A stretch of DNA of 39,085 bases, taken from positions 1 through 39,085 of IMG/VR virus record IMGVR_UViG_3300033232_000081. One strand, written 5' to 3'. Positions within the stretch are counted from its first letter, which is position 1. The number at the start of each line of letters is the position of its first letter. This document shows positions 690-29,594 of this stretch, piece by piece. The stretch comes from a virus. Its lineage: Duplodnaviria > Caudoviricetes. Below the pieces are notes generated by a model. That model worked only from the letters and a program-made list of their open reading frames with translations, ran no database searches and had not been told where the DNA came from. The translations under genes and the position numbers were made by a program.

Positions 690-1745
690 TTATATTCGTA
701 CTGTATCTCTCAATGGATTACTAATATCAGTGGCTATGCATATATCTGACACAATATTATGAATTGAATTATTTAAATATCTAGTTTTTAGATTGTAACA
801 ATTTGCTGGTTTCATCCAACCATCATAGCTCATTATTTGATTAACAATATTACTATGCTTTGGTTGAACTGTGTTTATTTTTACAATAGTATGTTTGAAT
901 TTTGTAGATATTGATTTTCTTAATAATGTATAATCATGAAAAAATCTATATCCCAAAAAGTCAATTCCTCTAATATCGACTGAAAACACTTGCCAATTAT
1001 CTTTAAGTTTTAAGTTTAATTCAGATTCAATATAATTAGTTGCAACTACTCGCAAATCAGCAAGATGTGCTTTATCTGAATCTAAAATTACAATATCATC
1101 ACAATACCTAAAATAATATTTACACTGCATCTGCTCTTTCATATAGTGGTCAAACCCAGATAAATAGATATTCCCAAAATATTGACTGAGATAATTCCCA
1201 ATTGGTACACCCTTTGTTGAATCTATTATTGTATCAAGTATCCACAATACATCAGAATCTTTTATCTTTGTTCTGATAATTGATTTCAATATGTCATGGT
1301 TAATTGATGGATAAAATTTACGTACATCCATTTTTAGACAATATTGTGTATTTTCTCTATCTATTAATGCGCGTTTAATACGATTTACACCTTTGTGAAC
1401 ACCTCTGTTTTTTAGAGATGAATATGTATCAGTAATTAATGTTTTCATCCAAATTGGTTCAAGTATTTGTACTATGCAATGATGAATTATTCTATCTGGA
1501 AAATATGGTAGTTTGAATATTTCTCGTTCTTTGCCATTATCTAATTTAATATATGTTATGTATTTAGAATTTACAAATGTTTTATTTTTTAGCATATCTT
1601 GGATACGTAATAGATATTTTTCAGAATTGGCATTAACCATTTGCACTTCATGGTAATGGGCTTTACCTCGTCTAGCATTTATATGCGCTCGATAGATATT
1701 ATCCAAGTCATATATTTTCGTGTATAGATTTCCATATCGTTTCAT
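690..1745 (-). CDS. DGR reverse transcriptase
   Basis: RT motifs KEREIFKLPYFPDRIIHH, YCLKMDVRKFYPSI, GVPIGNYLSQ, FRYCDD, GIDFLGY; 351 aa with no maturase or endonuclease domain; adjacent TR/VR pair. Confidence 0.97.
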   Translation of the reverse strand: MKRYGNLYTKIYDLDNIYRAHINARRGKAHYHEVQMVNANSEKYLLRIQDMLKNKTFVNSKYITYIKLDNGKEREIFKLPYFPDRIIHHCIVQILEPIWMKTLITDTYSSLKNRGVHKGVNRIKRALIDRENTQYCLKMDVRKFYPSINHDILKSIIRTKIKDSDVLWILDTIIDSTKGVPIGNYLSQYFGNIYLSGFDHYMKEQMQCKYYFRYCDDIVILDSDKAHLADLRVVATNYIESELNLKLKDNWQVFSVDIRGIDFLGYRFFHDYTLLRKSISTKFKHTIVKINTVQPKHSNIVNQIMSYDGWMKPANCYNLKTRYLNNSIHNIVSDICIATDISNPLRDTVRI

Positions 1746-1873
1746 AATTATTTCCTGTCTTGATTTACCTCAGAGCATTCGAATCATTTCTGACCTACTA
1801 ACACCTATGAGATTTATGTTTTGTATTTTGGCAAGAGCCATGGTTTTAGTATTCAATTTTATATATCAAGACA
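1746..1873 (-). ncRNA. DGR RNA 3' spacer between TR and RT
   Basis: 9-bp inverted repeat (1756-1764 / 1865-1873) closes the spacer onto the TR 3' end; contains GGCTCTTGCC and GTTAGTAG segments resembling other DGR spacers (recalled, not searched). Confidence 0.55.
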
Positions 1874-1987
1874 AACGCGAACTGATATTAACATTGACAT
1901 TCGAAGATGTGTTATTCGCATTCGTATAGAACGTACCTGCATTCGCACCGTTATTCGCATTACTACCTAGTTTGAAAACACGCCAAC
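1868..1987 (-). repeat. DGR template repeat (TR)
   Basis: Ungapped 120-bp match to 2061-2180; AAY-rich, reads WRVFKLGSNANNGANAGTFYTNANNTSSNVNVNISSRLS. Confidence 0.97.
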
Positions 1988-2055
1988 TGGTGAATACCTC
2001 AACCAAAATATTATCTTTATTGTTTTTTATTATCACCTCTCTCTAATTAATGTTA

Positions 2056-5000
2056 TTAATAAGACAAACGCGAACCGACATCAACACTGACAAACGAAGA
2101 TGCGCAATACGCAGCCGCAGAGAACGCACCCGCAGCCGCACCGCGACCCGCATTACCACCCAGCAAGAAAACACGCCAACCTGTAGATTGCCAGTAATAA
2201 TCAGTTATTTTAGTTGTACTAGTTGCCCCTACACTTGCAGGTAAGAATCCATTTGAAATTTGTTGCAGTGTATTCTGATACCCATCGGTTGCCACTAATG
2301 TTACTCCAAGATTTGTGTAATTTGTTGCAGTATCATCTGCAAAATCAGTACCAGTATTTGAAATATATGGAACATTATTATTGATATTAATTCCATCAAC
2401 CCATTTCCAAACATTACCATAGAAATTTTCAATGCCTCTATAACTCATATATGCAGCATCAGTATTACCACCAATATTTCCAGTTCCGTTACCATTAATA
2501 TTGGATTTACCACACATTCCAATATACGAGCCAGCTGTCCATGTACCGCCACTCAATTGAGTTCTTCCCGCTCCAATCACAGACTGTGAATAAAATGAAC
2601 CATATTCAATAACGTACAATAACTGAATTGCACTTTTTAAACTATAATATTGTTGTAACCACTCAATACCTCGCTGCGCTGCCATGCCTCTAAATTCTGC
2701 TCTGGTTTCATTTGTTTTTGGATATTCTCCAGACAATGAACATAATTTATCACCTGCCGCATACAGATTAGCAGTAATATCAGCAGGTGCTACCATTGCT
2801 CCAGCAGATGCATCGTACATCGAGCCTTCATATGCACCCATATATCGATAATCAACTTCTACACCATTTTTTATGAATGCGGGATGAACTGTAAACCCGC
2901 CTGCAATAATTGGACTTATTTCCCATGTATGCGAAGTACCAGCATATCCATATTTATAATAGAATTTAGGGATTTGCACCATCACTTGTCCTTGTGGATT
3001 ATCAATGCCAGCAACTCCAGCACCAAGATGTGCAGTACAAATCTCAAATGTTTCACCAAGTGCCATTATATTGGCATCAAGTGACAAGACATTATCAGAA
3101 TCTTTTGCTGTAATTAACGCATATGTATCATCGGTTGTATTATGAATATATCTTCCAACATAATCAGCTGCAGCCAGAGTAAAAACACCAACATCTGATA
3201 CTTTATTTGCAGTTCCCACATCATCTGTACCTATTTCAAACGGAGCAACATCATCACGATTATATCCATTTATAAAGTAATTAATAGTCCCATTATCTTT
3301 CAAAAGGCATCTCTTCATAGATGCCTGAATTGGAATCAAAGCATTAACAGGACTAACATTGAGAGGTTGTCCTGCCAATGTGCCTGTTCTTGCATAAGTG
3401 TCAGCCGATTCATCCCAAGATAACCCGTATGCCGTATTATAAATATCGGACACAAATGCTTTCTTTAAATTCCCTGTATCGCTTGCATCACTAATAAGAA
3501 CATAATCAGTACCAACTGCTGTGACTGCTGTCTTACCAGTAATGGCTGTTTTATTAACTGTCAAAGAAGTTGCACCAGTTACATCGCCAGTGTGTGTAGC
3601 ATTTGTAACTTTTGCTGTATTGGCTACGATTTCATCGAATTTAGCCTTCGTAAGCAAGCCAGCTCTTGTTGCACTTGCAGATACTAATGTTGCATTAGTC
3701 CCATCAGATGAATTTACATCAACTGTTGTTACAGTTGCAGTGCCTTCAGATAGATTAGTTGTTACGTTGGTCTCTTTTGCTGTATTCAGATTAATTGCAG
3801 TCCTATTTTCCTGCAATGCTGCTTCAACATTTACTGCTGTTATAATTGCGCCTGCATCAGCGATTGGAATATCTACTGCACTCACCTGTGTAGCACCTGT
3901 ACCCCAATCAACCATCGTATCCTTGATTTTGCTTGCTCCAATTACTGTTGCACCATCCCCTGTACTTGTAACATCTCCTGTGTGATTTGGATGAACATAC
4001 GCATTAGCACCATCTGCAACATTAATAATCGTGCGAACATTTGCTGCAGTCAAATCCTCAACATTACCAGTTGCAGCAGTAACCCTTCCCTTTATTGTAG
4101 CAGTAGCAATCTGTGACAATTTGGCGTTTGTTACAGCATTGGCTGCTATGGTTTGTACTCCGTCAGCAACTGAGGTCACATCTCCTGTATGATTTGGATG
4201 AACATAATTGTTAGCACCGTCTGCAACATTCAAAAGAGATAATGCTGTTGCTTTTGACAATACTTCTGGTACTCCAATTTCTGCTGTATTTCTACCAATC
4301 AAGGATGCTGTTGCCATATCCGCCATTTTAGCAAGAGTAACTGCTTTGTCAGTTATAACTGTTGCACCATCCCCTGTAGATGTCACTGCACCACTATGAT
4401 TTGGATGAACATAGTTATTTGCATTTGTTGCAATCCCATCAAGTTTTGTTATTTGTGTTGATGTTGCTAATCCATTCTGTGCTGCGGTTGCTGCCTGAGT
4501 TGCAACTGTTTGTTGGTCTAATGTCAAGTGATGATAATCATTTGCTGCGCCGCCTTGAATACCACCTAATTCATTATGATTTGCTACAGTCGAAGCTGCA
4601 AACTCATGAACGTGTGCATCCTGAATTGATATTATTGTATTTGATGTTGATTTTACAATAATTTTTGCAATTAATTCTCCCATCACATCTAAATATGGAT
4701 GTGTTATTCCTGAAGGAATTGCTTCTTGTGCTGCTGCTAAATTACCATTTTCATATCCATATTTGATATAATAGTAGCCATCAGCAGTCACATATAACCA
4801 CTGAACACTATATGAATTAGAAGACATAGTTCCCAATACAGCAGTCCCTGCATTGTATTTTGTAGTGTCAATGGCACTAGCAGAAGCATCATCGATTACC
4901 CATGCAGCACCAGCATCATTATAATGTATATACGTAAATGTGTCAGTCCCAGAAGTATTTAATGCTGGAGTTGTCAATCTATTATGACCAAAATACCATA

Positions 5001-5880
5001 CGCCAGAAGTTACTCCTAAATCCAATGTTGCAATTTTAGATGCGACTGATCCTGAAATATATGTGAATATATCTCTCTCTATTAATCTCTCGTGTTCTGT
5101 TCGTGTTAAATTTGGAACATGAACACCGTAACTTGCAATATGTGTGCCAGTAGTATTAGAATAAACACGTCCAATAGGGAACATTGTATTTATCCCAATT
5201 GCATTTCTATTTGTTGTTGCCTTAACAATAGGATTTCCGACATTATAATCAACATAAATATAATTCATTGATAGTGCAGTCAACAAAAGACCTGTTGTTG
5301 CCTCAACTTCAAATGATACTGTTGTTCCAATCTCAGAATCAGTTGTCTTAATAATCCCCTTACCTGCCGAAACATTCACATGAGTTGCATCAACTCCAGC
5401 ACTTATTATAAATCCATCAATGATGCCTGAACTCTGAACAATATTAAACCAGTGCTGTGCATTATGATGCGTTGGTGTTCCAATAACTTCAAAATTTACT
5501 GTACTCGCATCTTGTTCATGTGCACTATTTGCTTTTCCATCAAGGATAGTTTGAATGCCATAAGTCGCATCATTGAAATGACCTGCCGTGATGAGCATTG
5601 CTACTGTTTCCCCAGAAGTATGTGCAGAAGCCGATGTACCTTCTTGTGCTCGCACAATTGTTAAATTGTCACCGGTTCTTCCTGTACAATGAACAATTTC
5701 CATTCCAGTATCATTGCCAGGATTACTGTATATAGATTTATTCCATATCGTTAATCTGAATGGAAAGGTAGATGGAAATTTAGTTCCATCTCCCGCTGTA
5801 ACAGGCAAAGTGCTCGCATCAATTGCCAATATACCATTTAATAATGATTCTACATTATTTTTATATATGAATCCTGACAT
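2056..5880 (-). CDS. Tail fibre / receptor-binding protein with C-terminal CLec (Mtd-like) domain; DGR target
   Basis: 1274 aa, A/T/G-rich; N-terminal fibre anchor (EIV..TGRTGDNLTIVRAQEGT); SYRGIENFYGNVWKWVDG CLec signature; VR at C-terminus. Confidence 0.9.
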   Translation of the reverse strand: MSGFIYKNNVESLLNGILAIDASTLPVTAGDGTKFPSTFPFRLTIWNKSIYSNPGNDTGMEIVHCTGRTGDNLTIVRAQEGTSASAHTSGETVAMLITAGHFNDATYGIQTILDGKANSAHEQDASTVNFEVIGTPTHHNAQHWFNIVQSSGIIDGFIISAGVDATHVNVSAGKGIIKTTDSEIGTTVSFEVEATTGLLLTALSMNYIYVDYNVGNPIVKATTNRNAIGINTMFPIGRVYSNTTGTHIASYGVHVPNLTRTEHERLIERDIFTYISGSVASKIATLDLGVTSGVWYFGHNRLTTPALNTSGTDTFTYIHYNDAGAAWVIDDASASAIDTTKYNAGTAVLGTMSSNSYSVQWLYVTADGYYYIKYGYENGNLAAAQEAIPSGITHPYLDVMGELIAKIIVKSTSNTIISIQDAHVHEFAASTVANHNELGGIQGGAANDYHHLTLDQQTVATQAATAAQNGLATSTQITKLDGIATNANNYVHPNHSGAVTSTGDGATVITDKAVTLAKMADMATASLIGRNTAEIGVPEVLSKATALSLLNVADGANNYVHPNHTGDVTSVADGVQTIAANAVTNAKLSQIATATIKGRVTAATGNVEDLTAANVRTIINVADGANAYVHPNHTGDVTSTGDGATVIGASKIKDTMVDWGTGATQVSAVDIPIADAGAIITAVNVEAALQENRTAINLNTAKETNVTTNLSEGTATVTTVDVNSSDGTNATLVSASATRAGLLTKAKFDEIVANTAKVTNATHTGDVTGATSLTVNKTAITGKTAVTAVGTDYVLISDASDTGNLKKAFVSDIYNTAYGLSWDESADTYARTGTLAGQPLNVSPVNALIPIQASMKRCLLKDNGTINYFINGYNRDDVAPFEIGTDDVGTANKVSDVGVFTLAAADYVGRYIHNTTDDTYALITAKDSDNVLSLDANIMALGETFEICTAHLGAGVAGIDNPQGQVMVQIPKFYYKYGYAGTSHTWEISPIIAGGFTVHPAFIKNGVEVDYRYMGAYEGSMYDASAGAMVAPADITANLYAAGDKLCSLSGEYPKTNETRAEFRGMAAQRGIEWLQQYYSLKSAIQLLYVIEYGSFYSQSVIGAGRTQLSGGTWTAGSYIGMCGKSNINGNGTGNIGGNTDAAYMSYRGIENFYGNVWKWVDGININNNVPYISNTGTDFADDTATNYTNLGVTLVATDGYQNTLQQISNGFLPASVGATSTTKITDYYWQSTGWRVFLLGGNAGRGAAAGAFSAAAYCASSFVSVDVGSRLSY
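2061..2180 (-). repeat. DGR variable repeat (VR) at the 3' end of the tail fibre gene
   Basis: Encodes WRVFLLGGNAGRGAAAGAFSAAAYCASSFVSVDVGSRLS; 27 differences from TR, all at TR adenines. Confidence 0.97.
3940..4422 (-). repeat. Three 23-aa internal repeats in the tail fibre shaft
   Basis: AN(N/A)YVHPNH(S/T)G(A/D)VTSxxDGxxxI at 4354-4422, 4147-4215 and 3940-4008, with a 207-bp (69-aa) period. Confidence 0.85.
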
Positions 5881-7292: not shown

Positions 7293-8297
7293 TTATTCAA
7301 TTCCGTATATCTGTGCCATGCCTTCAGGGAACCGATTAATGAGAGTTCTATATGATTTCAAGAAGAATTTCTCACCATCTTCGGTCTTTGCAAGTTTCTC
7401 AAATGTGACATCTTGCAATACTCTCTGTTCAAGCATATTAGTATCCACAACCAATATTCTCCTTGCTGTAGTTGCAGTAGGCATGAACTGACTGACTACA
7501 ATCGGAATCTTACCAACAACTGTGCTCAATGTCAATGCATCAAGACCCCATGCAAAATTCTGGAATGGATTTACATACCTAACGTAATCCATCATCTGAT
7601 TCTCAAGATTCAATGCAGTGTACGCATCCGTGATAATCAAATTAGGTTTGCCCTTATTTGAAAATGCATCTGCCACCGCAGTCTTGACATCAGTCAATGC
7701 TACTGCAGTACCTGACATATTAGTATTGTTGCTTGTACACAATTTGATTAATCCGTTTGGCTCCAGAGGATATGTTGCAGTATCCCCATTAATCAGAGAG
7801 CTTTCAATCTCTTCATTCATAGTCTGAGTCTTATTCAGAACTTCCTGTCTCATACTATCAATGAAATGCCTGCTACCAGAATCTGCCACACCCGTAACTT
7901 TGCCAGTAACTCTGACATACTTGATTGTGCTTGATGCGAGTTCAGTCGTATCATCACTCTCAGTGAGTGCTGCCTGTTCTGTGCCCCATGTTCCACCGCC
8001 TCTTGCAGTAATCCTATAGTAATTAGCAGTTGTACCAAAATTTGTAACTGTTGGAATCAAACCCTTGACAGGTGTCATTCTCCTAGTAATATCAGTTACC
8101 TTTTGGTCATATGCTAATGGAGTCATTGCATATCCCGCTGCTCCACTTGCCGCACCAACATTCACTGCTTTCGTAAATGTTTCAGCACCAAAAATTCCGT
8201 TCATTGGGTCATCGATGATTGTCTCATCTCGCATTGAACCAAAACTCTTTTCATATGCATCTGTCACATTGACATCCGCGTATTTCATGAAACTCAT
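7293..8297 (-). CDS. Major capsid protein (HK97 fold)
   Basis: 334 aa after protease and scaffold genes; EIESSLINGD...EPNGL, GKIPIVVSQFMP, FEKLAKTEDGEKFFL patterns. Confidence 0.88.
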   Translation of the reverse strand: MSFMKYADVNVTDAYEKSFGSMRDETIIDDPMNGIFGAETFTKAVNVGAASGAAGYAMTPLAYDQKVTDITRRMTPVKGLIPTVTNFGTTANYYRITARGGGTWGTEQAALTESDDTTELASSTIKYVRVTGKVTGVADSGSRHFIDSMRQEVLNKTQTMNEEIESSLINGDTATYPLEPNGLIKLCTSNNTNMSGTAVALTDVKTAVADAFSNKGKPNLIITDAYTALNLENQMMDYVRYVNPFQNFAWGLDALTLSTVVGKIPIVVSQFMPTATTARRILVVDTNMLEQRVLQDVTFEKLAKTEDGEKFFLKSYRTLINRFPEGMAQIYGIE

Positions 8298-8299: not shown

Positions 8300-8722
8300 T
8301 TACACCTTTATCCCGTATGCTTTCGCAATTGCCGCATCAAGATAACCAGTGCCGGCATTCTTTTCAATGACAATTCCGATATCACCATCTTTGACGCCCT
8401 TCATGAGTGGGCTCTTTTCTAATACATCCAATCTCGTATCGCTATCTGCTTTCAAACTAGCAACAGCATCATCAACCATTTTCTGTATCTTCTCTTCAGG
8501 ACATTTCAATTTGTTATCCTCTTCTTTATTATTAGAAAATTCTTTCAGAATATCAATTTCTGCTGTCAATTTCTCAATAGATGTTTCAAGACCTTGAATA
8601 GTCTCTGCCATCTGTTCTTGTTCTGTGCTTGTTGCTTTCTCAAACAACTCCTCTACTTTTGTCAATTTCTCCATAAGAGCACCATACTCTTCAGGAGAAA
8701 TTGACTCGTCTTTGGTATCCAT
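8300..8722 (-). CDS. Putative scaffolding protein
   Basis: Acidic coiled-coil protein between protease and MCP; likely start ATG 8722 (AGGAG SD); ORF track extends to 8809. Confidence 0.65.
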   Translation of the reverse strand: MDTKDESISPEEYGALMEKLTKVEELFEKATSTEQEQMAETIQGLETSIEKLTAEIDILKEFSNNKEEDNKLKCPEEKIQKMVDDAVASLKADSDTRLDVLEKSPLMKGVKDGDIGIVIEKNAGTGYLDAAIAKAYGIKV

Positions 8723-8839
8723 ATTTCTTGGTCTCCTGTATAATATATCATGCCACACTTGTAGCAATGAACAATAATTTGTCTCCGCCTCAGCATCATT
8801 GACATTCACTATTATGTTAATACTTTAACAATGTTATTA

Positions 8840-10003
8840 TCATTTTTTATTAAATAATTTATTAAGTTGTTCTTTTGAAATTAAATGGTCACCATCATGT
8901 ATCCTTCCAATTAAATCAAATTTTAAATTATTTCTTACAATAATTTCTTTTTGACTTTGTGATAAATCATCATAGAATACAAAATCTTTATTATGTGGTT
9001 TATAATCTTTATATGACCCTTCAGTTAAATCATGCTTAACTTTAGAATCAAATAGTTCATCCATTTTATTAACTTTTTGTGCTATTTGCTCCTTACTTGT
9101 CCTATGCCCCTTCTGACCCGAGCCAACTCCACCCTTAATAAAAGAGTCGGCACTTTCTAAAAACTTATTTACTTTCATATATATTTCTCCATTTTCATAA
9201 ATGAACTTATCAAGGATAGGTGTTTTGATTAAGCGTCTAGATATCGCATTTTCAAATTCTTCCACCGATAACCATTTACCCGCTTTCAATGATTGGCTTT
9301 CATAGGATGCTCTTGAAACTGGATTACTCATCTTAATCTTTTCACCTTTTAGTGCTGCAATCTTTTTATCGTTTTCTGCCATCGCTTGTAATAATGGGCT
9401 CTTTCGGGAATTCTGTCCAGGTCCGGAACTTTTATGCCCCTTCTGCCCACTCCCTACACCACCCTTCTCGTATGGGCAATTGCCACTTTCACATGCACTT
9501 TTCAGAACTGTGAAGAATGCTCCGCTCGCACTGGGAACATCAACTATACTGGTTTCAAGCCAACTCTTAACAAAGATAGTACCATTAACTTTTTTTAGTG
9601 CTTTGCCACCGATACTGAATCCCTTATAGACACCATTTTTAATGCTGTTCCACATCCATCCTGGGACATGTTCTTTTTCAATTTTTGCTACCAGATATGG
9701 CTTCTCCCCAAAACTAGTAACATGTTCTTTCCCTTCACTATCAATATATTTCTCAACGACAGTCCCGATAGCACCTCGCCATTGTGGCGCTTTATCGTGC
9801 ATGAACCGAATGATAGGATTCTGCATATAAGTCTTAAAGACATTTCTTAGACTGTCCATGTCCATATTTTCATTATCATGGTCTAAATCAGGATTGCTTG
9901 CCTCACCGGCAATATACATAACACTATCATTGATTCCACTCAATTTCTCGAATGTCATCCCGTAATCCCAATCAACCTCATTCTCAATCATTTCATCGCT
10001 CAT
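8840..10003 (-). CDS. Prohead maturation protease (HK97/assemblin-like) with C-terminal cargo extension
   Basis: DLDHDNE, FMHD (His), GFSIGG (Ser), ETSIVDVP; two KGGVGSGQKGH motifs follow the catalytic domain. Confidence 0.88.
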   Translation of the reverse strand: MSDEMIENEVDWDYGMTFEKLSGINDSVMYIAGEASNPDLDHDNENMDMDSLRNVFKTYMQNPIIRFMHDKAPQWRGAIGTVVEKYIDSEGKEHVTSFGEKPYLVAKIEKEHVPGWMWNSIKNGVYKGFSIGGKALKKVNGTIFVKSWLETSIVDVPSASGAFFTVLKSACESGNCPYEKGGVGSGQKGHKSSGPGQNSRKSPLLQAMAENDKKIAALKGEKIKMSNPVSRASYESQSLKAGKWLSVEEFENAISRRLIKTPILDKFIYENGEIYMKVNKFLESADSFIKGGVGSGQKGHRTSKEQIAQKVNKMDELFDSKVKHDLTEGSYKDYKPHNKDFVFYDDLSQSQKEIIVRNNLKFDLIGRIHDGDHLISKEQLNKLFNKK

Positions 10004-10140
10004 CTTCTTTCACCTTCCTTAGTGATAGTTTCTGATTCACCAAAAACTATTTCTGCTTCTTCCTCAGACATTGTATCAAATATCGCAACAGAACTTATGG
10101 GTGTTCTACCATTCTCATCTGAGATGTTTATTTTTCTCAT
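10000..10140 (-). CDS. Small acidic protein (46 aa), not in ORF track
   Basis: MRKINISDENGRTPISSVAIFDTMSEEEAEIVFGESETITKEGERR; ATGA overlaps at both ends; GGAGGT SD. Confidence 0.6.
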   Translation of the reverse strand: MRKINISDENGRTPISSVAIFDTMSEEEAEIVFGESETITKEGERR

Positions 10141-11318
10141 GATTTTACCTCCCACATTTCATCTAAGAAAGTTTGAATATCTCCACCATCCTTAATAAAC
10201 TTTGAAAGTGACATCCAACTGGTAGACTTCTTTGTTGGTAACTTTGCTCTTATTACAACATCATCACCAGTAAGTTTAATACCATTCCCAAAAATAGTTA
10301 TCTCATTTTCTGGGTGGTGTGTGTTGTCACCAGTTGCTTTATAATCCAATGCTACATTATTCTTATACTTATCATATGGAATTTTCAACATAACATTAGT
10401 CTTCGAATCAGTACCTCTTGCTGTTTTCTGATTACGAACACCTGCATACCACTTGCCCAATGGTTCGCTTTCACTGGTACTAAAAAGTTTATTATCTAAT
10501 AATGCTTCACCATTTAAAACAATGCTCTCAACCAATGCCTTTGCCGACTTCATATTAGTTTCACCCCTATAGATAAAATCTGTGTGGTGATTCCTGTTAG
10601 TTTTTCTAGATGCTTTCATCAACAAATAAAGTGGTGCTTGATATAAATCCGTTTCGTTTAAATTACCCGATACAATCTCCTGCACCGCCTCACCTATTAT
10701 TGATACGCTATCTGCATTTCCAGAATACCACGAGTAAGAAACAAGTGACGGAATAATATCGGGCATATCTTTAACCCGCTTCAACAGCATCCTTGTTGAA
10801 TATTTTCCTTTACCTTCGATATTCTCTAAAATTGGCTCATATGTATCATAAAACTTTATATTATCTTTAATAGAATTATAGTTATTCATTAATAAATTAT
10901 ATTCTTTCTTAATGCCACTATTATAAACTAAATCTGAAAATATATCTGCTCTACCTTCTTCCTTCATGCTTTCAACTGTCTCTTCAACTTGCTTTTCTGG
11001 TACAGAAAGACTTATGCCTTCTTTCTCCAAAATAAACCTTCTGCCTTCTACTTTTACATTATGAGAAACCAGTGTTCTATTATCATTCTCCACAGTTATG
11101 GTAAATGTTCCTTCTGCAGCATTAACATTGCTTATGCCTTCATTAGAATATTTGTTCTTTCTAAAATTAACCAGACCATCCATCAAATCCTTATTTGGTA
11201 GTTCCCTTGCAGTCCGATGCCCCTTAATTCCAGACCCAACTCCACCTTTAGAAATATCATCTCGCATTCCATGAAGCCAGTTATCATTTACATCATTTAG
11301 TTCTGGTGAATCTCTCAT
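10137..11318 (-). CDS. KGGVGSG-tagged protein with C-terminal ADP-ribosyltransferase-like domain
   Basis: IYRG...FSTSES...ENEI matches the R-S-E ART triad; motif near the N-terminus. Confidence 0.7.
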   Translation of the reverse strand: MRDSPELNDVNDNWLHGMRDDISKGGVGSGIKGHRTARELPNKDLMDGLVNFRKNKYSNEGISNVNAAEGTFTITVENDNRTLVSHNVKVEGRRFILEKEGISLSVPEKQVEETVESMKEEGRADIFSDLVYNSGIKKEYNLLMNNYNSIKDNIKFYDTYEPILENIEGKGKYSTRMLLKRVKDMPDIIPSLVSYSWYSGNADSVSIIGEAVQEIVSGNLNETDLYQAPLYLLMKASRKTNRNHHTDFIYRGETNMKSAKALVESIVLNGEALLDNKLFSTSESEPLGKWYAGVRNQKTARGTDSKTNVMLKIPYDKYKNNVALDYKATGDNTHHPENEITIFGNGIKLTGDDVVIRAKLPTKKSTSWMSLSKFIKDGGDIQTFLDEMWEVKS

Positions 11319-14011
11319 ACTAATTCAACTCCAACATTAATCTTTCCGCTCTTCGACATAACGATATGTTCTTGTTGTTCCCAGAAACGATTTTTGACAT
11401 AATCGTGTCCTATTGAAACTTCTGGACTTAATAAAATATTTTTAATATCAAATGATTTCGATACTACTGCTCCTCCACCCACTGAAAACTCTTTAGCAAA
11501 GAAATCTGCCTTTGTTTTATCTGTTGACCAGCTGCTAAGACTATACACATCAATATCTGCCTTACCATCAGCCATCCTTACTTCTAATGCCTCCCTGGCA
11601 CCTTTATCCAACCCTCTATATAATGTAACCTTACCATCTGGATACTTCCTTCTAAGCATTTCCTGAGTAATAGAATAAATCTTCTTAACTCCAACCTTAT
11701 TATTCTCAGTTACTCCAACATCCTCGTGCTCTTTTTTTAACGGTCTTGACATCTCACTATTCAATCCAACTGATTCAGTAGCAATCTTATCCATTATATC
11801 CATGCTTGTTCCAGAATACCAAATTGCTACCATATCATAATTATCAAAAGTATATCTATCCTTGATATCTTGTCTCTTCATATCAAGAACATCCTTAAAC
11901 TCCTTCACTAACTGTCCCTCGCTCATCTTCTTCAACTTCTCATGATATGCAGTCCTATGTCCTTTAATCCCCGACCCAACTCCACCTTTAACTATACTAC
12001 TCGAATACTTCTCATACAGATTTTTAATATCTTTCGATACTGGTAATCCTTTTTTTAATGCACTTGCAATATCTGCTTTATGGTCACTATAAGTATATGA
12101 TGGGAACTTTTTAAGTGCTTCATTAAAAGTCATTTGCCAAGTATATTGTTTTTCTGTAGTAAATGGAAACTTCTCAGCAATGGACAATGCTTCTTTCCAA
12201 TTCTTACCACTCTCAATTGCACTAATAAAATTGTATGGTGCAGGATGTTTCTTACTCATCTTAACTTTATTCCAATCATAAACTGCTTTTGCTTCAGCTA
12301 CAAATTCATGTAAATTTGCAAATGCACCATTCATACCAATTCCAGCAACATCCTTGAAAACATTACTATCATATATTTCCCAATAATTATCCGGTGTTAT
12401 AATTCTCTTTTCCCACCTATGACCTTCTTCATGTCTTAGTATATGTGCTCTTGTATTAGTATTATGTGCAAAAAACTTATTATTTAATTGTATTTTACCA
12501 TTTGCTAACAATTGTGCCTCTTCCGTTCCAGAATCACCACCAAATACAAAACCACTTGGTATATTATTAATAAATTGTTTAAGTGTTACTTCAGATAAAA
12601 ACTTAATCTGAATATCATCCAATCCATAAACTTCAGGAGAACGCGAATCAGTAATATTCGCCTGCCTACCTTCAACAGATGTAGTATATGCACGTAATCT
12701 CTCAGTCAATGATAATACTTTTGACTGTGCAGTCGTATGCCCTTTAATCCCTGAGCCAACTCCACCTTTCTCAACATTGAATCCTTCGCGCATTTTTGTT
12801 AAATTATTTAATTCATCTTGGAATGATTTAAGTTCTTTTACATATTCGCTACCATCACTAAGAAGTTTTATTTTAGTTACATTTCCTGATTTACCAGAAA
12901 CTTCAAATTTAGAACCTGGGAGCAATACATTCTCATCAATGCCCATTACTGTCGCATCCACTAAGACAGAACCTTTCGGGACATCAAGTTCAAAAACTTC
13001 ACCATATCTTTTTGCTCTTTCAAAATCAGGTGTTGCTGACCGTGCACCTCTTGCTTCAAAAGTTTCTCCGACTTTCATATTACTAAACTTCTCACCCCTA
13101 AGCCCAAAGAAAACTTTCTTGTTTTCTTTTGTTTTATATTCTTCTCGTGTTGCAAATTTATATAAATCATCAAGATGATGGACAATCTCTACTTCTTTTC
13201 CTCTAGATGCTCTTCTTCTAAGCATATCTCTATAATCTGCATCTTTTAAATCTTCCCAAAAAGCGCCCATCGATAAAGGAAGTTGGCTTGTATCTGTCCT
13301 ATGCCCCTTAATTCCACTCCCAACACCGCCTTTCAAAACATCAATGATAGGTGATTTGAAGATTTTTGCTTCCTTTTGTGCTTTTGTACCATCATACATC
13401 TGCCCAGTAATTAATATTATATTTTCAGGTAAAACCTTTAAAGGTCTTGCTGTACACCTGTCGTTTGGTCTCATCGGTGGCATCATATAATGTGTTCCAG
13501 TTTCTGGGTCAATAAATGGTTCATCAACTTTCACAATCTGACCATACATTCTTTTACTGTCATCTGCAGTTCTCTTGTTTCCAATAGCAGCATTCCACCA
13601 CATCTTGTAATTAGCAACATTACTAGTAATCCAGGCATCATTCCGTCCGGTATTAACCGCAGTCATAACCTCTGTTCGAACCAACCTCTCGGTCTCCCAC
13701 TCTTTCATTCCGGCAAAATCATCTCTAACTCTTTCCATCAAGGATGGTATAGATTCTCTCAAGGATATCCCCTCGATGAGATGTTCTTTCAGATTACCAA
13801 TAATTCTATCTTTAGTGCCCTGTGATAATAACATTATTCTATTTTCTAACGCATCGATGGTAAACTGGTCCTGTGGTTCAATAAATTTACCCAACGTCTC
13901 TTTTTGACCCGCTTTCATACCATGCCAATATCCTTGTGTGACAATGTTTCTCAATATAGAACGCAATGTCTCAAAATTCAATTTCGCAAGTAACAGGTCG
14001 ACATCAATCAT
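11315..14011 (-). CDS. MuF (SPP1 gp7-like) minor head protein fused to ART-like, zincin and ART-like domains
   Basis: ERLVRTEV...PPMRPNDRC MuF core; SATPD..DVPKGS..ENVLLPGSKFEV; HEEGH..EFVAE; LYRGL..SSWSTD..QQE; three KGGVGSGIKGH linkers. Confidence 0.85.
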   Translation of the reverse strand: MIDVDLLLAKLNFETLRSILRNIVTQGYWHGMKAGQKETLGKFIEPQDQFTIDALENRIMLLSQGTKDRIIGNLKEHLIEGISLRESIPSLMERVRDDFAGMKEWETERLVRTEVMTAVNTGRNDAWITSNVANYKMWWNAAIGNKRTADDSKRMYGQIVKVDEPFIDPETGTHYMMPPMRPNDRCTARPLKVLPENIILITGQMYDGTKAQKEAKIFKSPIIDVLKGGVGSGIKGHRTDTSQLPLSMGAFWEDLKDADYRDMLRRRASRGKEVEIVHHLDDLYKFATREEYKTKENKKVFFGLRGEKFSNMKVGETFEARGARSATPDFERAKRYGEVFELDVPKGSVLVDATVMGIDENVLLPGSKFEVSGKSGNVTKIKLLSDGSEYVKELKSFQDELNNLTKMREGFNVEKGGVGSGIKGHTTAQSKVLSLTERLRAYTTSVEGRQANITDSRSPEVYGLDDIQIKFLSEVTLKQFINNIPSGFVFGGDSGTEEAQLLANGKIQLNNKFFAHNTNTRAHILRHEEGHRWEKRIITPDNYWEIYDSNVFKDVAGIGMNGAFANLHEFVAEAKAVYDWNKVKMSKKHPAPYNFISAIESGKNWKEALSIAEKFPFTTEKQYTWQMTFNEALKKFPSYTYSDHKADIASALKKGLPVSKDIKNLYEKYSSSIVKGGVGSGIKGHRTAYHEKLKKMSEGQLVKEFKDVLDMKRQDIKDRYTFDNYDMVAIWYSGTSMDIMDKIATESVGLNSEMSRPLKKEHEDVGVTENNKVGVKKIYSITQEMLRRKYPDGKVTLYRGLDKGAREALEVRMADGKADIDVYSLSSWSTDKTKADFFAKEFSVGGGAVVSKSFDIKNILLSPEVSIGHDYVKNRFWEQQEHIVMSKSGKINVGVELV

Positions 14012-14122
14012 CTAATTCCTCTGCCTATAAATCTTACCACACTTCTCGCACTTCTTCCAATTTCCAAAAGTATTATCTGGTCCCTTATGCACTTTTCCAG
14101 CACTACCACACACCGGACACAT
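14012..14122 (-). CDS. 36-aa zinc-ribbon peptide, not in ORF track
   Basis: MCPVCGSAGKVHKGPDNTFGNWKKCEKCGKIYRQRN; exactly fills the portal-MuF gap. Confidence 0.6.
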   Translation of the reverse strand: MCPVCGSAGKVHKGPDNTFGNWKKCEKCGKIYRQRN

Positions 14123-14125
14123 TTA

Positions 14126-16123
14126 TTATTCCCCTATCATACTTTCTATAAAATTATTCAATTTCACAATATCGTCGTCTTTATTCTTATCTTTAATAGT
14201 CATCTCTTCACCAACACCACCCTTTGCTATATCAGGATACATTTCTTTCAAATTATTCTCTAATTCTTTTTGAACTCGTTCCCAATACTCTTTTAACTTC
14301 TTTTCGCCATCGTCTTCAATCTTCTTTGTCATCACATGCCCATCTACCACATCCGGCGCCATAGCAAAACCCGCTTCACCACTCACAGCACCAACATTAA
14401 CCGCCTTCCTAATTTCAATAGGAATATTCTTAATCCCTAATTTTCTAGCAATTATTAATCTGTGCTTCCCTTCAGATAGAACACCAGATTTTAATTCTTC
14501 TTCTGTTACTGGTATCGGGTCAAATCGCCCATTTTTCATTCCAGATTCAATTCGACTCATTGCTTCATCTGTTCTTTTCTGACTCATATCGCCAGGATAA
14601 GCATATTTTGCGCGCATCTTCCAAGCATCTTCCAAACTTATAGTCGTGTGCCCCTTAACTCCAGACCCAACCCCGCCTTTCTCAACAAACCCACCATCAT
14701 CTTCGTCCTCTGTAGTATCCCCAGTATCACCGAAAGGATTCCAATCACCAAACATATCGTCTTCCTGCCCCTCTTGACCACCACCACCACTACCTTCAGC
14801 AAATGGCATATCAAACTTTTTGTCATCAAGGATATGCTCACCATCACGTTCACGTAGTTCATTGATTGCTACTTTACCGGAACGAATATAGATTTCATCT
14901 ATTTGCGCCTGTTTCATTTTATCTTCCAGGTCCAACGATGTTTTGAACTTGAAACTAACATCAGGATATTTTTTCCATACTAAATCCCGATTAATAACAT
15001 CTTCAATTAATTTTAATAGCGGTCTAATTGCCCGACTCTTATGAATGTTCATCTGTTGCATGCCAGTCGCGCGATTCAAATCCTCAGTCCATCCAATCTC
15101 GCTAGGCGCAATCTTAAAAATACTCAATACCAATTTAGCAAACCATTTCTGCCCATCCAACCACTGCATCTGTTGGGGATTAAATGGGAATCCCTGAACT
15201 TTGACTCCACCACCAGTAACTAACCAGCGTCCCGCCTTCTTCGGTCCCTGCAGATTCTTTTTATATTCAGCCGCTTTCAATCTTAACTCATTAACATCCT
15301 TGATGTCAGGATGGTCAATCTGTCCACCGATAAACAGCCCATTCTCCCACAACTTAGAATTTGCCTCAGTACTGTCCATCAAATAATTAACGATATCCTT
15401 GACAATCTCCAATCTACTAGTCCCATACATTCCGCGACTATTCGGTCTAGTCCTAAAATACATTACCTCATCAACACTAAACTCTGTGGGAATCCCACTT
15501 GGATTTAACCAACTATATTGCCAAAATCTCTTCCATCTTCCACCGATACTAGAACTCTCAATCATGAAACTTCTGCCATCTCTCACACTCAAATCAATGA
15601 CATCGTTTGCACCCTTCTTCAATTTACCCGTTTCACCATCAAAGTCCTTAAGTCCGAAAACCTTCAATATTACTCCAGCATCATACCATTCCAAATCCGG
15701 AATCATCTCAGCCAGACAAACACTAAAACTCTCTTCACTTGGCAAATTCTCAAAGAACATTCGCATATCATTGATAGCCTTTTCATTACCAACTTCTCCC
15801 CTCTCTAACTTCTTTCTAGGAACAATATCCCATTCGGCGCTAGTAATCGCATCAACTTTTGCGTCTATACAAATCTGAACCCATACACTCTTTTCAAATT
15901 GCTGTAATTCATTATAATCAATATTCCTTGGTCTGCCATAAGGAGGATTAAGCCAATACTCTTCGGTCATAACACCTTTCAATGCCTGACCTCTATTGCC
16001 CTCGTCGAAAACAGTAATACTTTGTACATCTGCACGTGGTATAATTTCTTCAGCGCGCACCAATCTATAGTTACCACTAGCCACTCTTCTGATTGGCTCA
16101 ACAAATGTACTTATTATACTCAT
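14126..16123 (-). CDS. Portal protein (HK97-type) with C-terminal extension containing a ParB/Srx-like domain
   Basis: WVQICID, YGTSRLE, FKIAPSEIG, INELRERDG portal motifs; the extension contains DPIPV..LSEGKHRLIIARKLGIKNIPI; likely start ATG 16123. Confidence 0.9.
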   Translation of the reverse strand: MSIISTFVEPIRRVASGNYRLVRAEEIIPRADVQSITVFDEGNRGQALKGVMTEEYWLNPPYGRPRNIDYNELQQFEKSVWVQICIDAKVDAITSAEWDIVPRKKLERGEVGNEKAINDMRMFFENLPSEESFSVCLAEMIPDLEWYDAGVILKVFGLKDFDGETGKLKKGANDVIDLSVRDGRSFMIESSSIGGRWKRFWQYSWLNPSGIPTEFSVDEVMYFRTRPNSRGMYGTSRLEIVKDIVNYLMDSTEANSKLWENGLFIGGQIDHPDIKDVNELRLKAAEYKKNLQGPKKAGRWLVTGGGVKVQGFPFNPQQMQWLDGQKWFAKLVLSIFKIAPSEIGWTEDLNRATGMQQMNIHKSRAIRPLLKLIEDVINRDLVWKKYPDVSFKFKTSLDLEDKMKQAQIDEIYIRSGKVAINELRERDGEHILDDKKFDMPFAEGSGGGGQEGQEDDMFGDWNPFGDTGDTTEDEDDGGFVEKGGVGSGVKGHTTISLEDAWKMRAKYAYPGDMSQKRTDEAMSRIESGMKNGRFDPIPVTEEELKSGVLSEGKHRLIIARKLGIKNIPIEIRKAVNVGAVSGEAGFAMAPDVVDGHVMTKKIEDDGEKKLKEYWERVQKELENNLKEMYPDIAKGGVGEEMTIKDKNKDDDIVKLNNFIESMIGE

Positions 16124-16146
16124 ATTATCAGTCCATATCAAATATT

Positions 16147-16207
16147 ATACTAGGATTTTTATCTTTCGGTTCATCTGCCAGGAACATCGCCATCACACTA
16201 CTCCAAA
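16147..16207. repeat. Direct repeat copy 1 (orphan duplicate of the terL 3' end)
   Basis: 59/61 bp identical to 16549-16609. Confidence 0.95.
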
Positions 16208-16222
16208 CTCCCTATCTCAATC

Positions 16223-16528
16223 CTACTTCTTAGGTCTATTTTCAAAATCATATTTCGCTTTTCTCTTTTCTTGTTCCTGTTTTGCAAATTCTGAGTGCAA
16301 ATCAAGTAGTGCTCCCATCTTTCCCCAAGTCTCAGTGCTCCAAGTTTTAGTCTGTTCCTTGTCTTCCATCAAATTCTTAAGTGTCTTCACCATATCAAAA
16401 TGATTTATATCACCCTTTGAATCTCTAGCCACGGTTCTGTGACCCTTCTGACCCGATCCAGGACCACCCTTCATGAAAGAATAAATAGACTCTTCCAAAT
16501 TCTCAATTCTATTTCTTAGTTCACTCAT
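16223..16528 (-). CDS. Small KGGPGSG-tagged protein inserted between terL and portal
   Basis: FMKGGPGSGQKGHRT motif; flanked by the 61-bp direct repeats; ATG 16528 (track start TTG 16537). Confidence 0.75.
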   Translation of the reverse strand: MSELRNRIENLEESIYSFMKGGPGSGQKGHRTVARDSKGDINHFDMVKTLKNLMEDKEQTKTWSTETWGKMGALLDLHSEFAKQEQEKRKAKYDFENRPKK

Positions 16529-16529
16529 C

Positions 16530-17999
16530 TTAATCAAACTCCATTATCATACTAGGATTTTTATCTTTCGGTTCATCTGCCAGGAACATCGCCATCGCAT
16601 TACTCCAAAAAGCATCACCGTGCCCTTCATCAGTCTCAACCGCTTTCAAATTATTATCAACCTGTAACATCACATCAATCTGACGTTGGTCGTTTATCAA
16701 GGATATGTGTTTCTGACCTATTTTTCGTTCCAGACACGATGCCATTGCCTGATTCATTTTTTTGCTAAATGTAATTGGCTCCATCCATGATGGCAATTCA
16801 CCACGTTCTGCTAATATCTCAAATTCTCCTCTCGTATTATCATACCCGACAACATCAATCATTAATTGTTCTTTCAACTTCTTGACTCTACCCAACTGAA
16901 TATTATAATCAATGCCATCCCAGAACATTTGATATCGTTGAACCGCCTTACTACCAACCATCTCGAAAACACTGAAATGACTGGGATGCCGTTTCTTGCC
17001 CAAATCCCATCCGGCAAATACATTATTATCTGTATTCAACTGTTTAACATTCTCAATCTCATTAGCCACTTCTTCCAACTGCGCCCGCTTAAAGAATGCA
17101 TCCTCACTCCGTATCGGAGAACACATATATTCCTTATTGAATCCCTTCTCCAATATTTCTTCTTGAATCTGCAACAATCGATGATATGGAAACATGTTTG
17201 GCCATACGACCGTCTTTTCTTTCCAATTCAAGATTGCCGGCTCTCTGCTCCAAAAGAAACCATCATTCGTTTTACTCTTAACCCGCCCTCTCTTCTTTAT
17301 CTGAAAGAACAAATCATTATCGTCTTGCGGAGTTCCCGCTAAATGCAGTTCACCGCCCTCCTGTGGCAAACTCATAATATCTTCAAAGAAAACTTTTGTA
17401 ATAGTATTAATAATTGTCAAATTCAACGGATTCTTCGGGTCAGCCAAAATATCATCACAAATCACAACCCGTGGATGTCGACCCCTCTTAAATCCACCTA
17501 TCCCTGCCGGAGTAACAACAAATTTAATCCGACCTAACTTATCCCAGCTGTAACTCAAATGAGTATCAGCAACGGTTAAATCATAAATATCATTGAAGAA
17601 TATATTCTTTTTTATCAACTGCTTAATATTACCTGTATGATATGACGCCATCGTTTCATTATAACTCAAATAGAGACATTCAAAACTATTATCCTGACAC
17701 CTAAATAACTTCCACATCACATAAGCATAAAAAGTAGTACTCTTCAAATGCTTCCTTGCACACAATCTCGCAGTCAATTTATTAGTCTGCAATTCATATG
17801 CCCATCTTACCATATGAGGTGCTGGCACCCAACATCCTTCAGGTGGATTCGTCCAACTCCCATCACTATTCCCGTCCCACTTTTTAAAACTCAATGGAAA
17901 CACATATTGCACAAAATATGGAAAACTATGATATGCTCTCCTTGCTGTATCTATCATCCATTCTAAATCTGTATCATCGATGATAGGTTCATCATTCAT
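16530..17999 (-). CDS. terL: Terminase large subunit
   Basis: ARKHLKST (variant Walker A), KRGRHPRVVICDD (Walker B), GTPQ motif III, GWDLG and HGDAFW RNase H-like nuclease motifs. Confidence 0.92.
   Translation of the reverse strand: MNDEPIIDDTDLEWMIDTARRAYHSFPYFVQYVFPLSFKKWDGNSDGSWTNPPEGCWVPAPHMVRWAYELQTNKLTARLCARKHLKSTTFYAYVMWKLFRCQDNSFECLYLSYNETMASYHTGNIKQLIKKNIFFNDIYDLTVADTHLSYSWDKLGRIKFVVTPAGIGGFKRGRHPRVVICDDILADPKNPLNLTIINTITKVFFEDIMSLPQEGGELHLAGTPQDDNDLFFQIKKRGRVKSKTNDGFFWSREPAILNWKEKTVVWPNMFPYHRLLQIQEEILEKGFNKEYMCSPIRSEDAFFKRAQLEEVANEIENVKQLNTDNNVFAGWDLGKKRHPSHFSVFEMVGSKAVQRYQMFWDGIDYNIQLGRVKKLKEQLMIDVVGYDNTRGEFEILAERGELPSWMEPITFSKKMNQAMASCLERKIGQKHISLINDQRQIDVMLQVDNNLKAVETDEGHGDAFWSNAMAMFLADEPKDKNPSMIMEFD
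16549..16609. repeat. Direct repeat copy 2 (within the terL 3' end)
   Basis: 59/61 bp identical to 16147-16207. Confidence 0.95.
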
Positions 18000-18001
18000 A
18001 A

Positions 18002-18352
18002 TTAACACATGCATCCTGTTGTATCGTGGGTACAAAATTGTTTCGGCTTAAGGCATCCTCGGCATAAAGAACCAACATAATCCTGCCCCTCTTCAATCTC
18101 CGCTACCTTCTCATATACCGAATCAAAAATATGCGATTTACACGGATATAAATATCCATGCTTATCCTTGATAATCCAATCATCCTTAATAGCAATCATA
18201 TCCCCGTTAAAAGTATGACAAATAAAAGTATCATTAATAAATGAATATGCATCTTGATAAATATCAAGTTCTCTCTCTATTTTCCAGGCACCATTATAAG
18301 TGCCGTCGAATTGAACAGCATCAATAATTACTGGCTTCTCTTTAAATTTCAT
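18002..18352 (-). CDS. Conserved phage protein (KPVIIDAVQF...YPCK..IF...YE, PGDYG-like family)
   Basis: Recognisable widespread phage motif; function not established. Confidence 0.7.
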   Translation of the reverse strand: MKFKEKPVIIDAVQFDGTYNGAWKIERELDIYQDAYSFINDTFICHTFNGDMIAIKDDWIIKDKHGYLYPCKSHIFDSVYEKVAEIEEGQDYVGSLCRGCLKPKQFCTHDTTGCMC

Positions 18353-29587: not shown

Positions 29588-29594
29588 TTAAATA

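What the first reader, a model, noticed from the sequence alone, without database searches (positions are those of the whole stretch)
9098..16471. A 13-aa KGG(V/P)GSGxKGHx(T/S) tag repeated across five head proteins: candidate protease-released virion cargo system
Seen: eight full copies, at 9098-9136 and 9428-9466 (protease), 11211-11249 (393-aa ORF), 11951-11989, 12731-12769 and 13295-13333 (MuF), 14642-14680 (portal) and 16433-16471 (small ORF), plus a partial KGGVG at 14210-14224. Codon third positions differ between copies, so selection appears to act on the peptide. Every copy is preceded by hydrophobic-X-K (YEK, FIK, ISK, IVK, VEK, VLK, VEK, IAK, FMK). Each full copy starts a different, unrelated segment, and the motif was not seen outside the head module. 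Established: the HK97 prohead protease cleaves after Lys, T4 gp21 processes internal head proteins at a short consensus, and MuF proteins carry toxin domains. Inference: the viral protease cuts at phi-X-K|G inside the prohead and releases about 8 cargo polypeptides sharing the neo-N-terminus GGxGSGxKGH. That terminus could be an ejection, packaging or DNA-binding tag, and its coding DNA could serve as a homology handle for shuffling cargo. I recall GGPGSG-like peptides in other phage head proteins, but I know of no description of this as a system.
Basis: partly seen in the sequence, partly recalled or inferred. Interest (0 to 1): 0.92.

Follow-up and report, generated by a model that had tools for sequence, protein, structure and literature searches.

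The report
Portable N-terminal tag on virion cargo
This virus, likely of an archaeon, repeats one short glycine-rich peptide at the start of eight swappable segments in its head proteins, and across many viruses the peptide follows whichever residue the virus's own head protease is predicted to cut after, so it likely becomes a free N-terminus that would tether released cargo enzymes to the packaged DNA.

Summary
Observation confirmed: eight KGG(V/P)GSGxKGH copies and one remnant, all in head genes, conserved as peptide rather than as DNA. The tag is widespread: 437 sites in 198 viral groups. The residue before GG is uniform within a virus (0.90 of pairs, 0.30 shuffled) and follows the prohead-protease family: K with XkdF/S78-like, D with DUF2213, L/A with a divergent DUF2213 clade, H with His-ending S78, L/I-x-E with T4 gp21-type. 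Where readable it matches the residue ending the protease's own domain. SPP1-like phages with no detected prohead protease carry the tag directly after the start Met, on small basic proteins; five terminase small subunits do too. The working unit is therefore likely a free N-terminal GGxGSG arm. Cargo here: three predicted ADP-ribosyltransferases, a zincin-like, a ParB-like and three small modules, which swap among relatives. Cleavage is strongly inferred (about 0.85); DNA tethering and ejection are weaker (about 0.5). Nothing was tested experimentally. It works like T4 IP/Alt processing and polyvalent MuF proteins, but the conserved peptide lies after the cut. Ten literature searches found no description. 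This scan noted GGPGSG before in two other phages.

The parts
9098..9136 (-). Tag copy in the protease ORF, after FIK (K290); starts an 85-aa small module
9428..9466 (-). Tag copy in the protease ORF, after YEK (K180), 12 residues past the protease domain end; starts a 97-aa module
11211..11249 (-). Tag copy after a 24-aa leader in the 393-aa ORF
11951..11989 (-). Tag copy starting MuF module 3
12731..12769 (-). Tag copy starting MuF module 2
13295..13333 (-). Tag copy starting MuF module 1, just after the MuF core
14210..14224 (-). Remnant tag (KGGVG) at the second portal insertion site; relatives L011 and L033 carry a full tag plus cargo at this position
14642..14680 (-). Tag copy in the portal tail, starting the ParB-like insert
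16433..16471 (-). Tag copy (GGPGSG form) after a short leader in the small ORF
8840..10003 (-). Prohead protease, XkdF family; His69 and Ser130 (predicted catalytic) and the domain-ending Lys168 are invariant in 11 of 11 aligned sequences; carries two tagged modules
   Evidence: PF14550 E 7.5e-6; alignment; model matches T4 gp21 5jbl, E 6e-4, prob 1.0
8300..8809 (-). Probable scaffold protein with four phi-X-K|small sites
   Evidence: position between protease and capsid genes, homologues in relatives; role inferred
7293..8297 (-). Major capsid protein; predicted maturation site K43|A44, a K|A seen in all relatives whose printed stretch reaches it
   Evidence: PF17236
10137..11318 (-). Stand-alone cargo gene: leader + tag + predicted ADP-ribosyltransferase fold (lead only)
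   Evidence: Atlas features 0.94, TM about 0.5, under the bar for naming a family; homologues P0002 and P0003
11315..14011 (-). MuF minor head protein with three tagged modules
   Evidence: PF04233 residues 74-188
12770..13330 (-). MuF module 1: predicted ADP-ribosyltransferase
   Evidence: Atlas TM 0.70 to PF03496, meets the bar for a name
11990..12766 (-). MuF module 2: zincin-like, from the HExxH motif and a downstream Glu only
   Evidence: sequence; no homologue; fold uninformative
11315..11986 (-). MuF module 3: DRAT-like ADP-ribosyltransferase; found in other carriers in relatives
   Evidence: PF07357 E 5.5e-6
14126..16141 (-). HK97-type portal with an extended, cargo-bearing C-terminal tail
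   Evidence: PF04860
14405..14677 (-). ParB-like insert: tag + about 79 aa ending in IRK, placed at a native K|A site that tagless relatives also have
   Evidence: 3 of 20 homologues hit ParB_N, below the cut-off
14355..14404 (-). Portal-tail peptide resembling the predicted mature N-terminus of the capsid protein; ancestral in this clade, not cargo
   Evidence: repeat D4, 76% over 58 nt
16223..16537 (-). Small cargo gene (ATG at 16528): leader + tag + 69 aa; absent between TerL and portal in relative L020
16138..16207 (.). Copy of a 70-nt direct repeat (93%) of the TerL 3' end, flanking the small cargo gene
16540..16609 (.). Original of that repeat, inside the TerL 3' end
16530..18035 (-). 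Terminase large subunit (untagged)
   Evidence: phrog_38

Best explanation
The peptide is likely a portable N-terminal arm: the virus's prohead protease would cut portal, MuF, itself and two small precursors after hydrophobic-X-Lys during head maturation, and each of eight released modules would then begin with GGxGSG, which is predicted to tether it to the packaged DNA so that it is kept in the head and would enter the host with the genome. Shown: the repeats, their protein-level conservation, their position at module borders, the match between the preceding residue and the protease family across viruses, the Met-start form, and module swapping. Inferred: cleavage (about 0.85), retention in the mature head (about 0.7), DNA as the partner and co-ejection (about 0.5). 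The cargo would act at the start of infection, like T4 Alt.
For: (1) The residue before GG (P1) is the same in 0.898 of 1112 within-virus site pairs, against 0.299 shuffled (max 0.384 in 300 shuffles); 308 sites in 69 multi-site groups. (2) In the P1-agnostic scans, 14 of 14 groups with a K-clade (XkdF/S78-like) protease have P1=K and 0 of 32 with a DUF2213-like protease do; GTDB contigs repeat this: 17 D+DUF2213, 2 K+K-clade, 2 L/A+divergent DUF2213. (3) The protease's own domain ends in the same residue: D in the D clade, RAA/RTA in the L/A clade, K in the window's clade, H in two S78 proteases. (4) T4 gp21-type S77 was found in 2 of 48 records, both with P1=E; 13 of 17 E sites have L/I at P3, the published gp21 rule L/I-X-E (PMC9026906, passages). 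(5) Tagless relatives have a plain K|A at the portal site where the window inserts tag+cargo+K. (6) 114 sites read M-GGPGSGR, 84 with a Shine-Dalgarno-like sequence and no upstream in-frame ATG; 68 are small closed ORFs (median 67 aa, 28% K+R, net +15), 4-5 per genome within SPP1-like head modules. No S78 or XkdF protease was found in 5 such records, two of them complete. Met removal before Gly (established) gives the same N-terminus. (7) Five about 170-aa Met-start carriers are terminase small subunits, PF05119, proteins that act on DNA. (8) 74 of 81 long-locus groups have a head marker nearby. (9) 16 of 150 scanned modules are ARTs, the commonest class among the 30 with a hit.
Against: No cleavage, virion or binding data exist. 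Net charge of the first 20 residues is only +1.0 on average, and the window's form lacks the GRP seen in 190 of 437 sites. The same cargos occur without the tag (0 of 34 ParB-like homologues). P1 is mixed in some groups (L039 K/L/M, L222 A/G/C, L100 H/N, L018 K/R). 50 of 102 groups had no protease identified, and 6 of 8 E-type records have no S77, two of them 93-100% complete. Related viruses are not independent, so the Fisher p of 4e-12 overstates the case. phi-X-K|small alone occurs at background rates in non-head proteins. The terminase likeness may be convergent, and 13 of 29 small-ORF groups showed no head marker with one seed set. One of the five SPP1-like records has a ClpP-like gene in its head module, and the DUF2213 search there had no positive control.
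Confidence: 0.6

Rival explanations
1. Cleavage is real, but the freed arm binds a head protein (capsid interior, portal channel or an ejection pilot) rather than DNA, acting as a loading or ejection-order signal.
For: Gly/Ser/Pro-rich, weakly charged core; a conserved His in 63% of sites is unusual for plain electrostatic binding; Met-start forms have no leader, so the tag itself could be the loading signal.
Against: The tag persists across very different capsid and portal families (SU10_MCP, Gp23, Phage_cap_E, Phage_capsid_4; HK97- and SPP1-type portals), where DNA is the evident common partner; it also heads terminase small subunits.
Confidence: 0.2
2. The tag is only a flexible prime-side linker that makes the site easy to cut and has no role after cleavage.
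For: Gly-rich sequence exactly at P1'; the region after the protease domain is modelled at low confidence (pLDDT under 50 for residues 159-201).
Against: Native sites (K|A, K|S, D|S) lack it; conservation runs to about 20 residues in 240 of 437 sites; it is kept right after a start Met where there is nothing to cut; alternative tags start with Tyr or Phe.
Confidence: 0.1
3. The arm works in the infected cell: it stabilises or addresses the injected module, or is itself a decoy or phosphate-binding nest (GGPGSG equals the start of the adenylate kinase P-loop).
For: GGPGSGK is the adenylate kinase glycine loop (PMC6517553, one passage); cargo classes are host-directed.
Against: The Walker A Lys is replaced by N (53%) or R (28%) among sites kept after excluding GSGK[ST]; hosts appear to span archaea and many bacterial phyla (record titles), which makes one host receptor unlikely.
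Confidence: 0.06
4. The repeat is a DNA recombination handle in uncut fusion proteins.
For: P0004 joins the leader of the 393-aa ORF to the MuF module-3 cargo at the tag; copies are 64-81% identical to a reference copy over 47 nt.
Against: Synonymous sites are at background and two Ser codon families are used; the preceding residue tracks the protease family; the small cargo gene is flanked by a repeat of the TerL end, not of the tag.
Confidence: 0.04

Closest known systems
T4 internal proteins IPI-III and Alt, with capsid targeting sequence and gp21 processing (PMC9026906, PMC7411985; passages read)
   Same: Cargo, including an ADP-ribosyltransferase, is loaded into the prohead as a precursor, cut by the prohead protease at a short motif and ejected into the host; the window's protease model matches gp21; two cargo genes here have short leaders.
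   Different: The T4 conserved signal lies before the cut and is discarded; here the conserved peptide lies after the predicted cut and would stay on the cargo. Most cargo here is fused in series to portal, MuF and protease, the two leaders are not alike, and the tag crosses protease families.
Phage polyvalent proteins (Iyer et al. 2017, PMC5512222; passages read)
   Same: Multidomain virion proteins with ART, zincin-like MPTase and ParB-like domains fused to MuF or portal, proposed to be injected and proteolytically split.
   Different: In the passages seen, processing is ascribed mainly to embedded MPTases, with assemblin-like peptidases noted only briefly; no shared border peptide or match to prohead-protease specificity appears. 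Its supplementary alignments were not seen.
MuF polymorphic toxins (Jamet et al. 2017, PMC5576092; passages read)
   Same: MuF domain with variable C-terminal enzymatic extension, hypothesised to be delivered with the DNA.
   Different: Three modules in series rather than one; no small gene after MuF that could be an immunity gene; 'cleav' and 'motif' occur 0 times in that paper's main text; the tag also marks portal, protease and stand-alone cargo.
Pfam DUF7211 (PF23847), a 25-position peptide family of unknown function
   Same: Short peptide directly after the same genome-specific residue (H or D) as the GGPGSG tag in the same viruses.
   Different: Different sequence; the GGxGSG tag has no Pfam, NCBIfam or PDB entry in the searches made.

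Membership tests
HK97-fold tailed virus with XkdF-type prohead protease | Terminase, portal, prohead protease and HK97-type capsid genes in one module | tested here: met
HK97-fold tailed virus with XkdF-type prohead protease | Intact His/Ser catalytic pair | tested here: met
   H69 and S130 invariant in 11 of 11; catalytic role inferred from the fold
T4-type CTS cargo system | Shared N-terminal propeptide that targets cargo to the core | tested here: not met
   the two leaders in the window differ; six of eight tags are internal; the conserved part follows the site
T4-type CTS cargo system | Cut by the prohead protease at its own consensus | tested here: inconclusive
   strong covariation but no biochemistry
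T4-type CTS cargo system | Present in virions and ejected into the host | not testable with these tools
   no isolate or proteome
Phage polyvalent proteins | Two or more biochemically disparate domains in one virion-linked polypeptide | tested here: met
   MuF + two ART + zincin-like module; portal + ParB-like module
Phage polyvalent proteins | Architecture varies between close relatives | tested here: met
MuF polymorphic toxin | MuF domain plus variable C-terminal toxin domain | tested here: met
   PF04233 and PF07357; variable tails
MuF polymorphic toxin | Adjacent cognate immunity gene | tested here: not met
   the next gene overlaps the MuF stop and is another tagged cargo ORF
AT-hook (consensus recalled) | Arg-Gly-Arg-Pro core | tested here: not met
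   RGRP in 4 of 437 sites, GRP in 190, neither in the window's tags
Walker A P-loop | GxxGxGK[ST] inside an NTPase fold | tested here: not met
   position 7 is I, Q or V in the window's tags and no NTPase domain surrounds them

The most novel reading that the evidence does not exclude
Tailed viruses of bacteria and archaea share an undescribed N-terminal address code: a free GGxGSG arm (and a few interchangeable peptides such as DUF7211) that ties any protein to the encapsidated genome for co-ejection. Viruses with a prohead protease expose it by placing their own cut residue in front; viruses without one put it after the start Met. It would mark injected effectors from sequence alone and serve as a portable loading tag.
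Probability: 0.4. Interest if true: 0.92.

Novelty: new variant of a known kind. Interest (0 to 1): 0.8.

Why it matters
How most tailed viruses keep chosen proteins inside the head and deliver them with the DNA is open outside T4 and a few giant phages. The tag makes this testable with a 13-20 residue peptide. It gives predicted domain borders and mature N-termini for hundreds of candidate injected effectors, 120 of 150 of which have no Pfam match, so it is a way to mine anti-defence and host-takeover proteins, including for archaeal viruses. It also yields predicted specificities for prohead protease families: XkdF after K, DUF2213 after D, a divergent DUF2213 clade after R/K-x-L/A, and His-ending S78.

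Tried and rejected
tblastn of two 23-25 aa tag peptides against cultured phages found nothing (the low-complexity filter may mask them), and a PDB sequence search with one found nothing. Three cultured phages reached through protease similarity (StAshley, AB434P2, Polewnik) carry no tag in the 18-kb regions read. No relative of the capsid protein was found in GTDB contigs or cultured phages, and none of the polymerase in cultured phages, so the host is inferred only from PriL, RFC and Hef/Xpf hits. No sequencing run was listed (no evidence either way). The single-sequence fold of MuF module 2 was useless (pLDDT 36) and it has no homologue. PDB and NCBIfam searches of the cargo modules gave nothing. 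A paper on minimal phosphate-loop peptides was not held, so that idea rests only on the kinase-loop identity. No complex prediction was run: the tag is under 30 residues and DNA cannot be the partner. Rows dropped: L269 and G-preceded GTDB hits were treated as chance; 6 GTDB loci gave no in-ORF site; 18 loose matches (132 to 114) were removed from the Met-start count; L081 was left out of the Pfam check; 2 of 50 handles did not appear as separate records. AT-hook and Walker A membership were rejected.
Full report
Setting. The window is a 39-kb linear IMG/VR record, estimated 37% complete. It encodes a tailed-virus head module on the minus strand: terminase, portal (PF04860), MuF (PF04233), an XkdF-family protease (PF14550), a probable scaffold and an SU10-type capsid protein. 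Replication genes resembling archaeal PriL, RFC and Hef/Xpf point to an archaeal host; no provirus or cultured relative was found.

Observation. All eight copies and the remnant are at the stated places and nowhere else in six frames; the reversed control pattern gives 0 matches. Third codon positions are at background (0.44 against 0.40) and both Ser codon families are used, so the peptide is under selection. The protease model matches T4 gp21; His69, Ser130 and the domain-ending Lys168 are invariant in 11 of 11 aligned sequences. The capsid protein has K43|A44 at a position where relatives also show K|A. By itself hydrophobic-X-K|small is common in any protein, so a comparative test was needed.

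The preceding residue follows the protease. This gave 437 distinct sites in 198 groups: K 199, D 101, L 47, A 31, E 17, H 10, R 8, F 7, N 5, others 12. Within a virus the residue is the same in 0.898 of pairs against 0.299 shuffled; P2 and P4 show far less agreement. Local HMMs found a protease in 52 of 102 groups with loci of 4 kb or more; 21 of these proteins were checked in Pfam, 18 with a protease-family hit. Outside the K-anchored scan, 14 of 14 XkdF/S78-like groups have K and 0 of 32 DUF2213-like groups do. The DUF2213 proteases split into a clade whose own domain ends in D (tags after D), a clade ending RAA or RTA (tags after R/K-x-L/A) and one ending IRN (tags after N or H). Two S78 proteases ending in H go with H tags and a canonical S78 goes with an R tag. 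T4 gp21-type S77 occurred in 2 of 48 records, both E-type, and 13 of 17 E sites have L/I at P3, the published gp21 rule (PMC9026906, passages). GTDB contigs replicate the pattern: 17 D, 2 K and 2 L/A groups with the expected protease, 10 tagged groups with none found, and 26 of 32 same-residue pairs. Against this: several groups are mixed, 6 of 8 E-type records lack S77, and kin are not independent.

Modules are inserted and swapped. Tagless relatives run straight from the acidic portal linker into K|A; the window inserts tag + ParB-like module + K there, L032 and L019 insert a different cargo at the same site, and L011 and L033 carry tag + cargo at the second site where the window has only the remnant. 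P0004 has the leader of the 393-aa ORF, the tag and the MuF module-3 cargo; P0002 has another leader, the tag and the 393-aa cargo. The small cargo gene is flanked by a 70-nt, 93% repeat of the TerL end and is missing in L020. The window's cargos are three predicted ARTs (the 393-aa one is a lead only), a zincin-like module (motif only), a ParB-like module and three small modules. Of 150 modules scanned (out of 260 of 110 aa or more), 30 hit Pfam, 16 as ARTs, others as zeta kinase, PI3/4-kinase-like, topoisomerase IB, 2H, SUKH and CdiA-C. 74 of 81 groups with loci of 9 kb or more had a head marker (some marker seeds were not Pfam-checked).

The tag is not obligatory for a cargo. P0003, P0005, L020 and L030 carry the same cargos behind other short basic peptides that also follow a K, and none of 34 ParB-like homologues examined (of 42 found) has any of the tags sought. 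In tagged genomes, QPRD-type, WTxEAR-type and DUF7211 peptides follow, at or within two residues, the same genome-specific residue. Several interchangeable arms appear to exist.

The unit is likely a free N-terminus. Two sites with Met directly before the tag led to a scan for M-GGPGSGR: 135 stretches, 114 strict sites, 84 with a Shine-Dalgarno-like sequence and no upstream in-frame ATG. 68 are small, very basic ORFs, four or five per genome, interspersed in head modules with an SPP1 portal, MuF, a DUF4355 scaffold and a capsid gene. 16 of 29 such groups had a head marker, none had an internal tag or an XkdF/DUF2213-like hit. Five records, two complete, had no S78 or XkdF protease; one had a ClpP-like gene; the DUF2213 search had no positive control. 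In the two complete genomes 4 of 4 and 4 of 5 pattern matches lie in the head module. Five of 14 longer Met-start proteins tested are terminase small subunits. Removal of Met before Gly is established biochemistry, so cut and uncut routes converge on the same terminus. This argues against a mere linker.

Mechanism. Shown: repeats, borders, covariation, Met-start form, swapping. Inferred: the protease cuts after the lysines in the prohead; leaders and acidic linkers leave; each module keeps the arm. DNA is the most economical partner, because the arm spans unrelated capsids and portals, heads very basic mini-proteins and heads terminase small subunits. The support is indirect: mean charge of the first 20 residues is only +1.0 against -0.5 upstream, and AT-hook and Walker A tests fail. 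I put cleavage at 0.85, DNA tethering with co-ejection at 0.5, and the account as a whole at 0.6.

Comparison and novelty. It works like T4 IP/Alt processing and is a member of the polyvalent-protein class (PMC5512222, passages), with a MuF-toxin-like architecture but no evident immunity gene (PMC5576092, passages). It is not a T4 CTS, which precedes the cut and is discarded (PMC7411985, passages). PMC7824862 (passages) treats XkdF as a probable head-processing peptidase. Ten searches, two with the motif letters, found no description of the tag; subscription papers and the supplements of these papers were not seen and could mention it. That HK97 protease cuts after Lys is recalled, not checked. 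Two earlier notes of this scan saw GGPGSG in other phages; in the lines shown, neither reports the protease covariation or the Met-start form. I rate it a new variant of a known kind, interest 0.8.

Noticed in passing
window 690-5880 (minus strand): Diversity-generating retroelement: reverse transcriptase 690-1745, template repeat 1868-1987 and variable repeat 2061-2180 at the end of the 1274-aa tail protein; within the repeat the differences fall at template adenines.
   Followed up: partly
window 14355-14412 and 8119-8176: The portal tail carries a copy of the predicted mature N-terminal arm of the capsid protein after its own K site; kept in relatives, and in L032 and L019 it ends a separate downstream ORF. 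It may fill the capsid-arm site at the portal vertex.
   Followed up: partly
window 16138-16207 and 16540-16609: 70-nt, 93% direct repeat of the TerL 3' end flanks the small tagged gene, suggesting recent insertion or easy excision.
   Followed up: partly
L393, L451, L420, L524 (G051-G053, G049): SPP1-like phages with 4-5 different small, very basic ORFs, each starting with Met plus the tag, placed between head genes; candidate DNA-condensing core peptides.
   Followed up: partly
L404, L410, L423, L426, L432: Terminase small subunits (PF05119) that begin with Met plus the tag.
   Followed up: partly
L239 group (L010, L022, L236) and L228/L229: Viruses with 21-27 tag sites per group, up to six in one protein, almost none with a Pfam match.
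   Followed up: no
L030, L031, L027, L032 protease N-termini; P0002: A Cys-containing leader of about 35 aa ending in K precedes the protease in relatives and the ART cargo in P0002; a candidate true capsid-targeting propeptide.
   Followed up: no
L251:6067-7503 and L222:4977-6560: Related proteins just upstream of the capsid gene in viruses with A or C before the tag; possibly an unassigned prohead protease family.
   Followed up: no
window 3941-4423: Three 69-nt repeats at 207-nt spacing inside the tail protein gene.
   Followed up: no
window 28535-39083 (plus strand): Archaeal-type replication cluster: primase, Hef/Xpf nuclease, RFC small subunit, PolB, methylase, AAA ATPase, ATP-dependent ligase.
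   Followed up: partly
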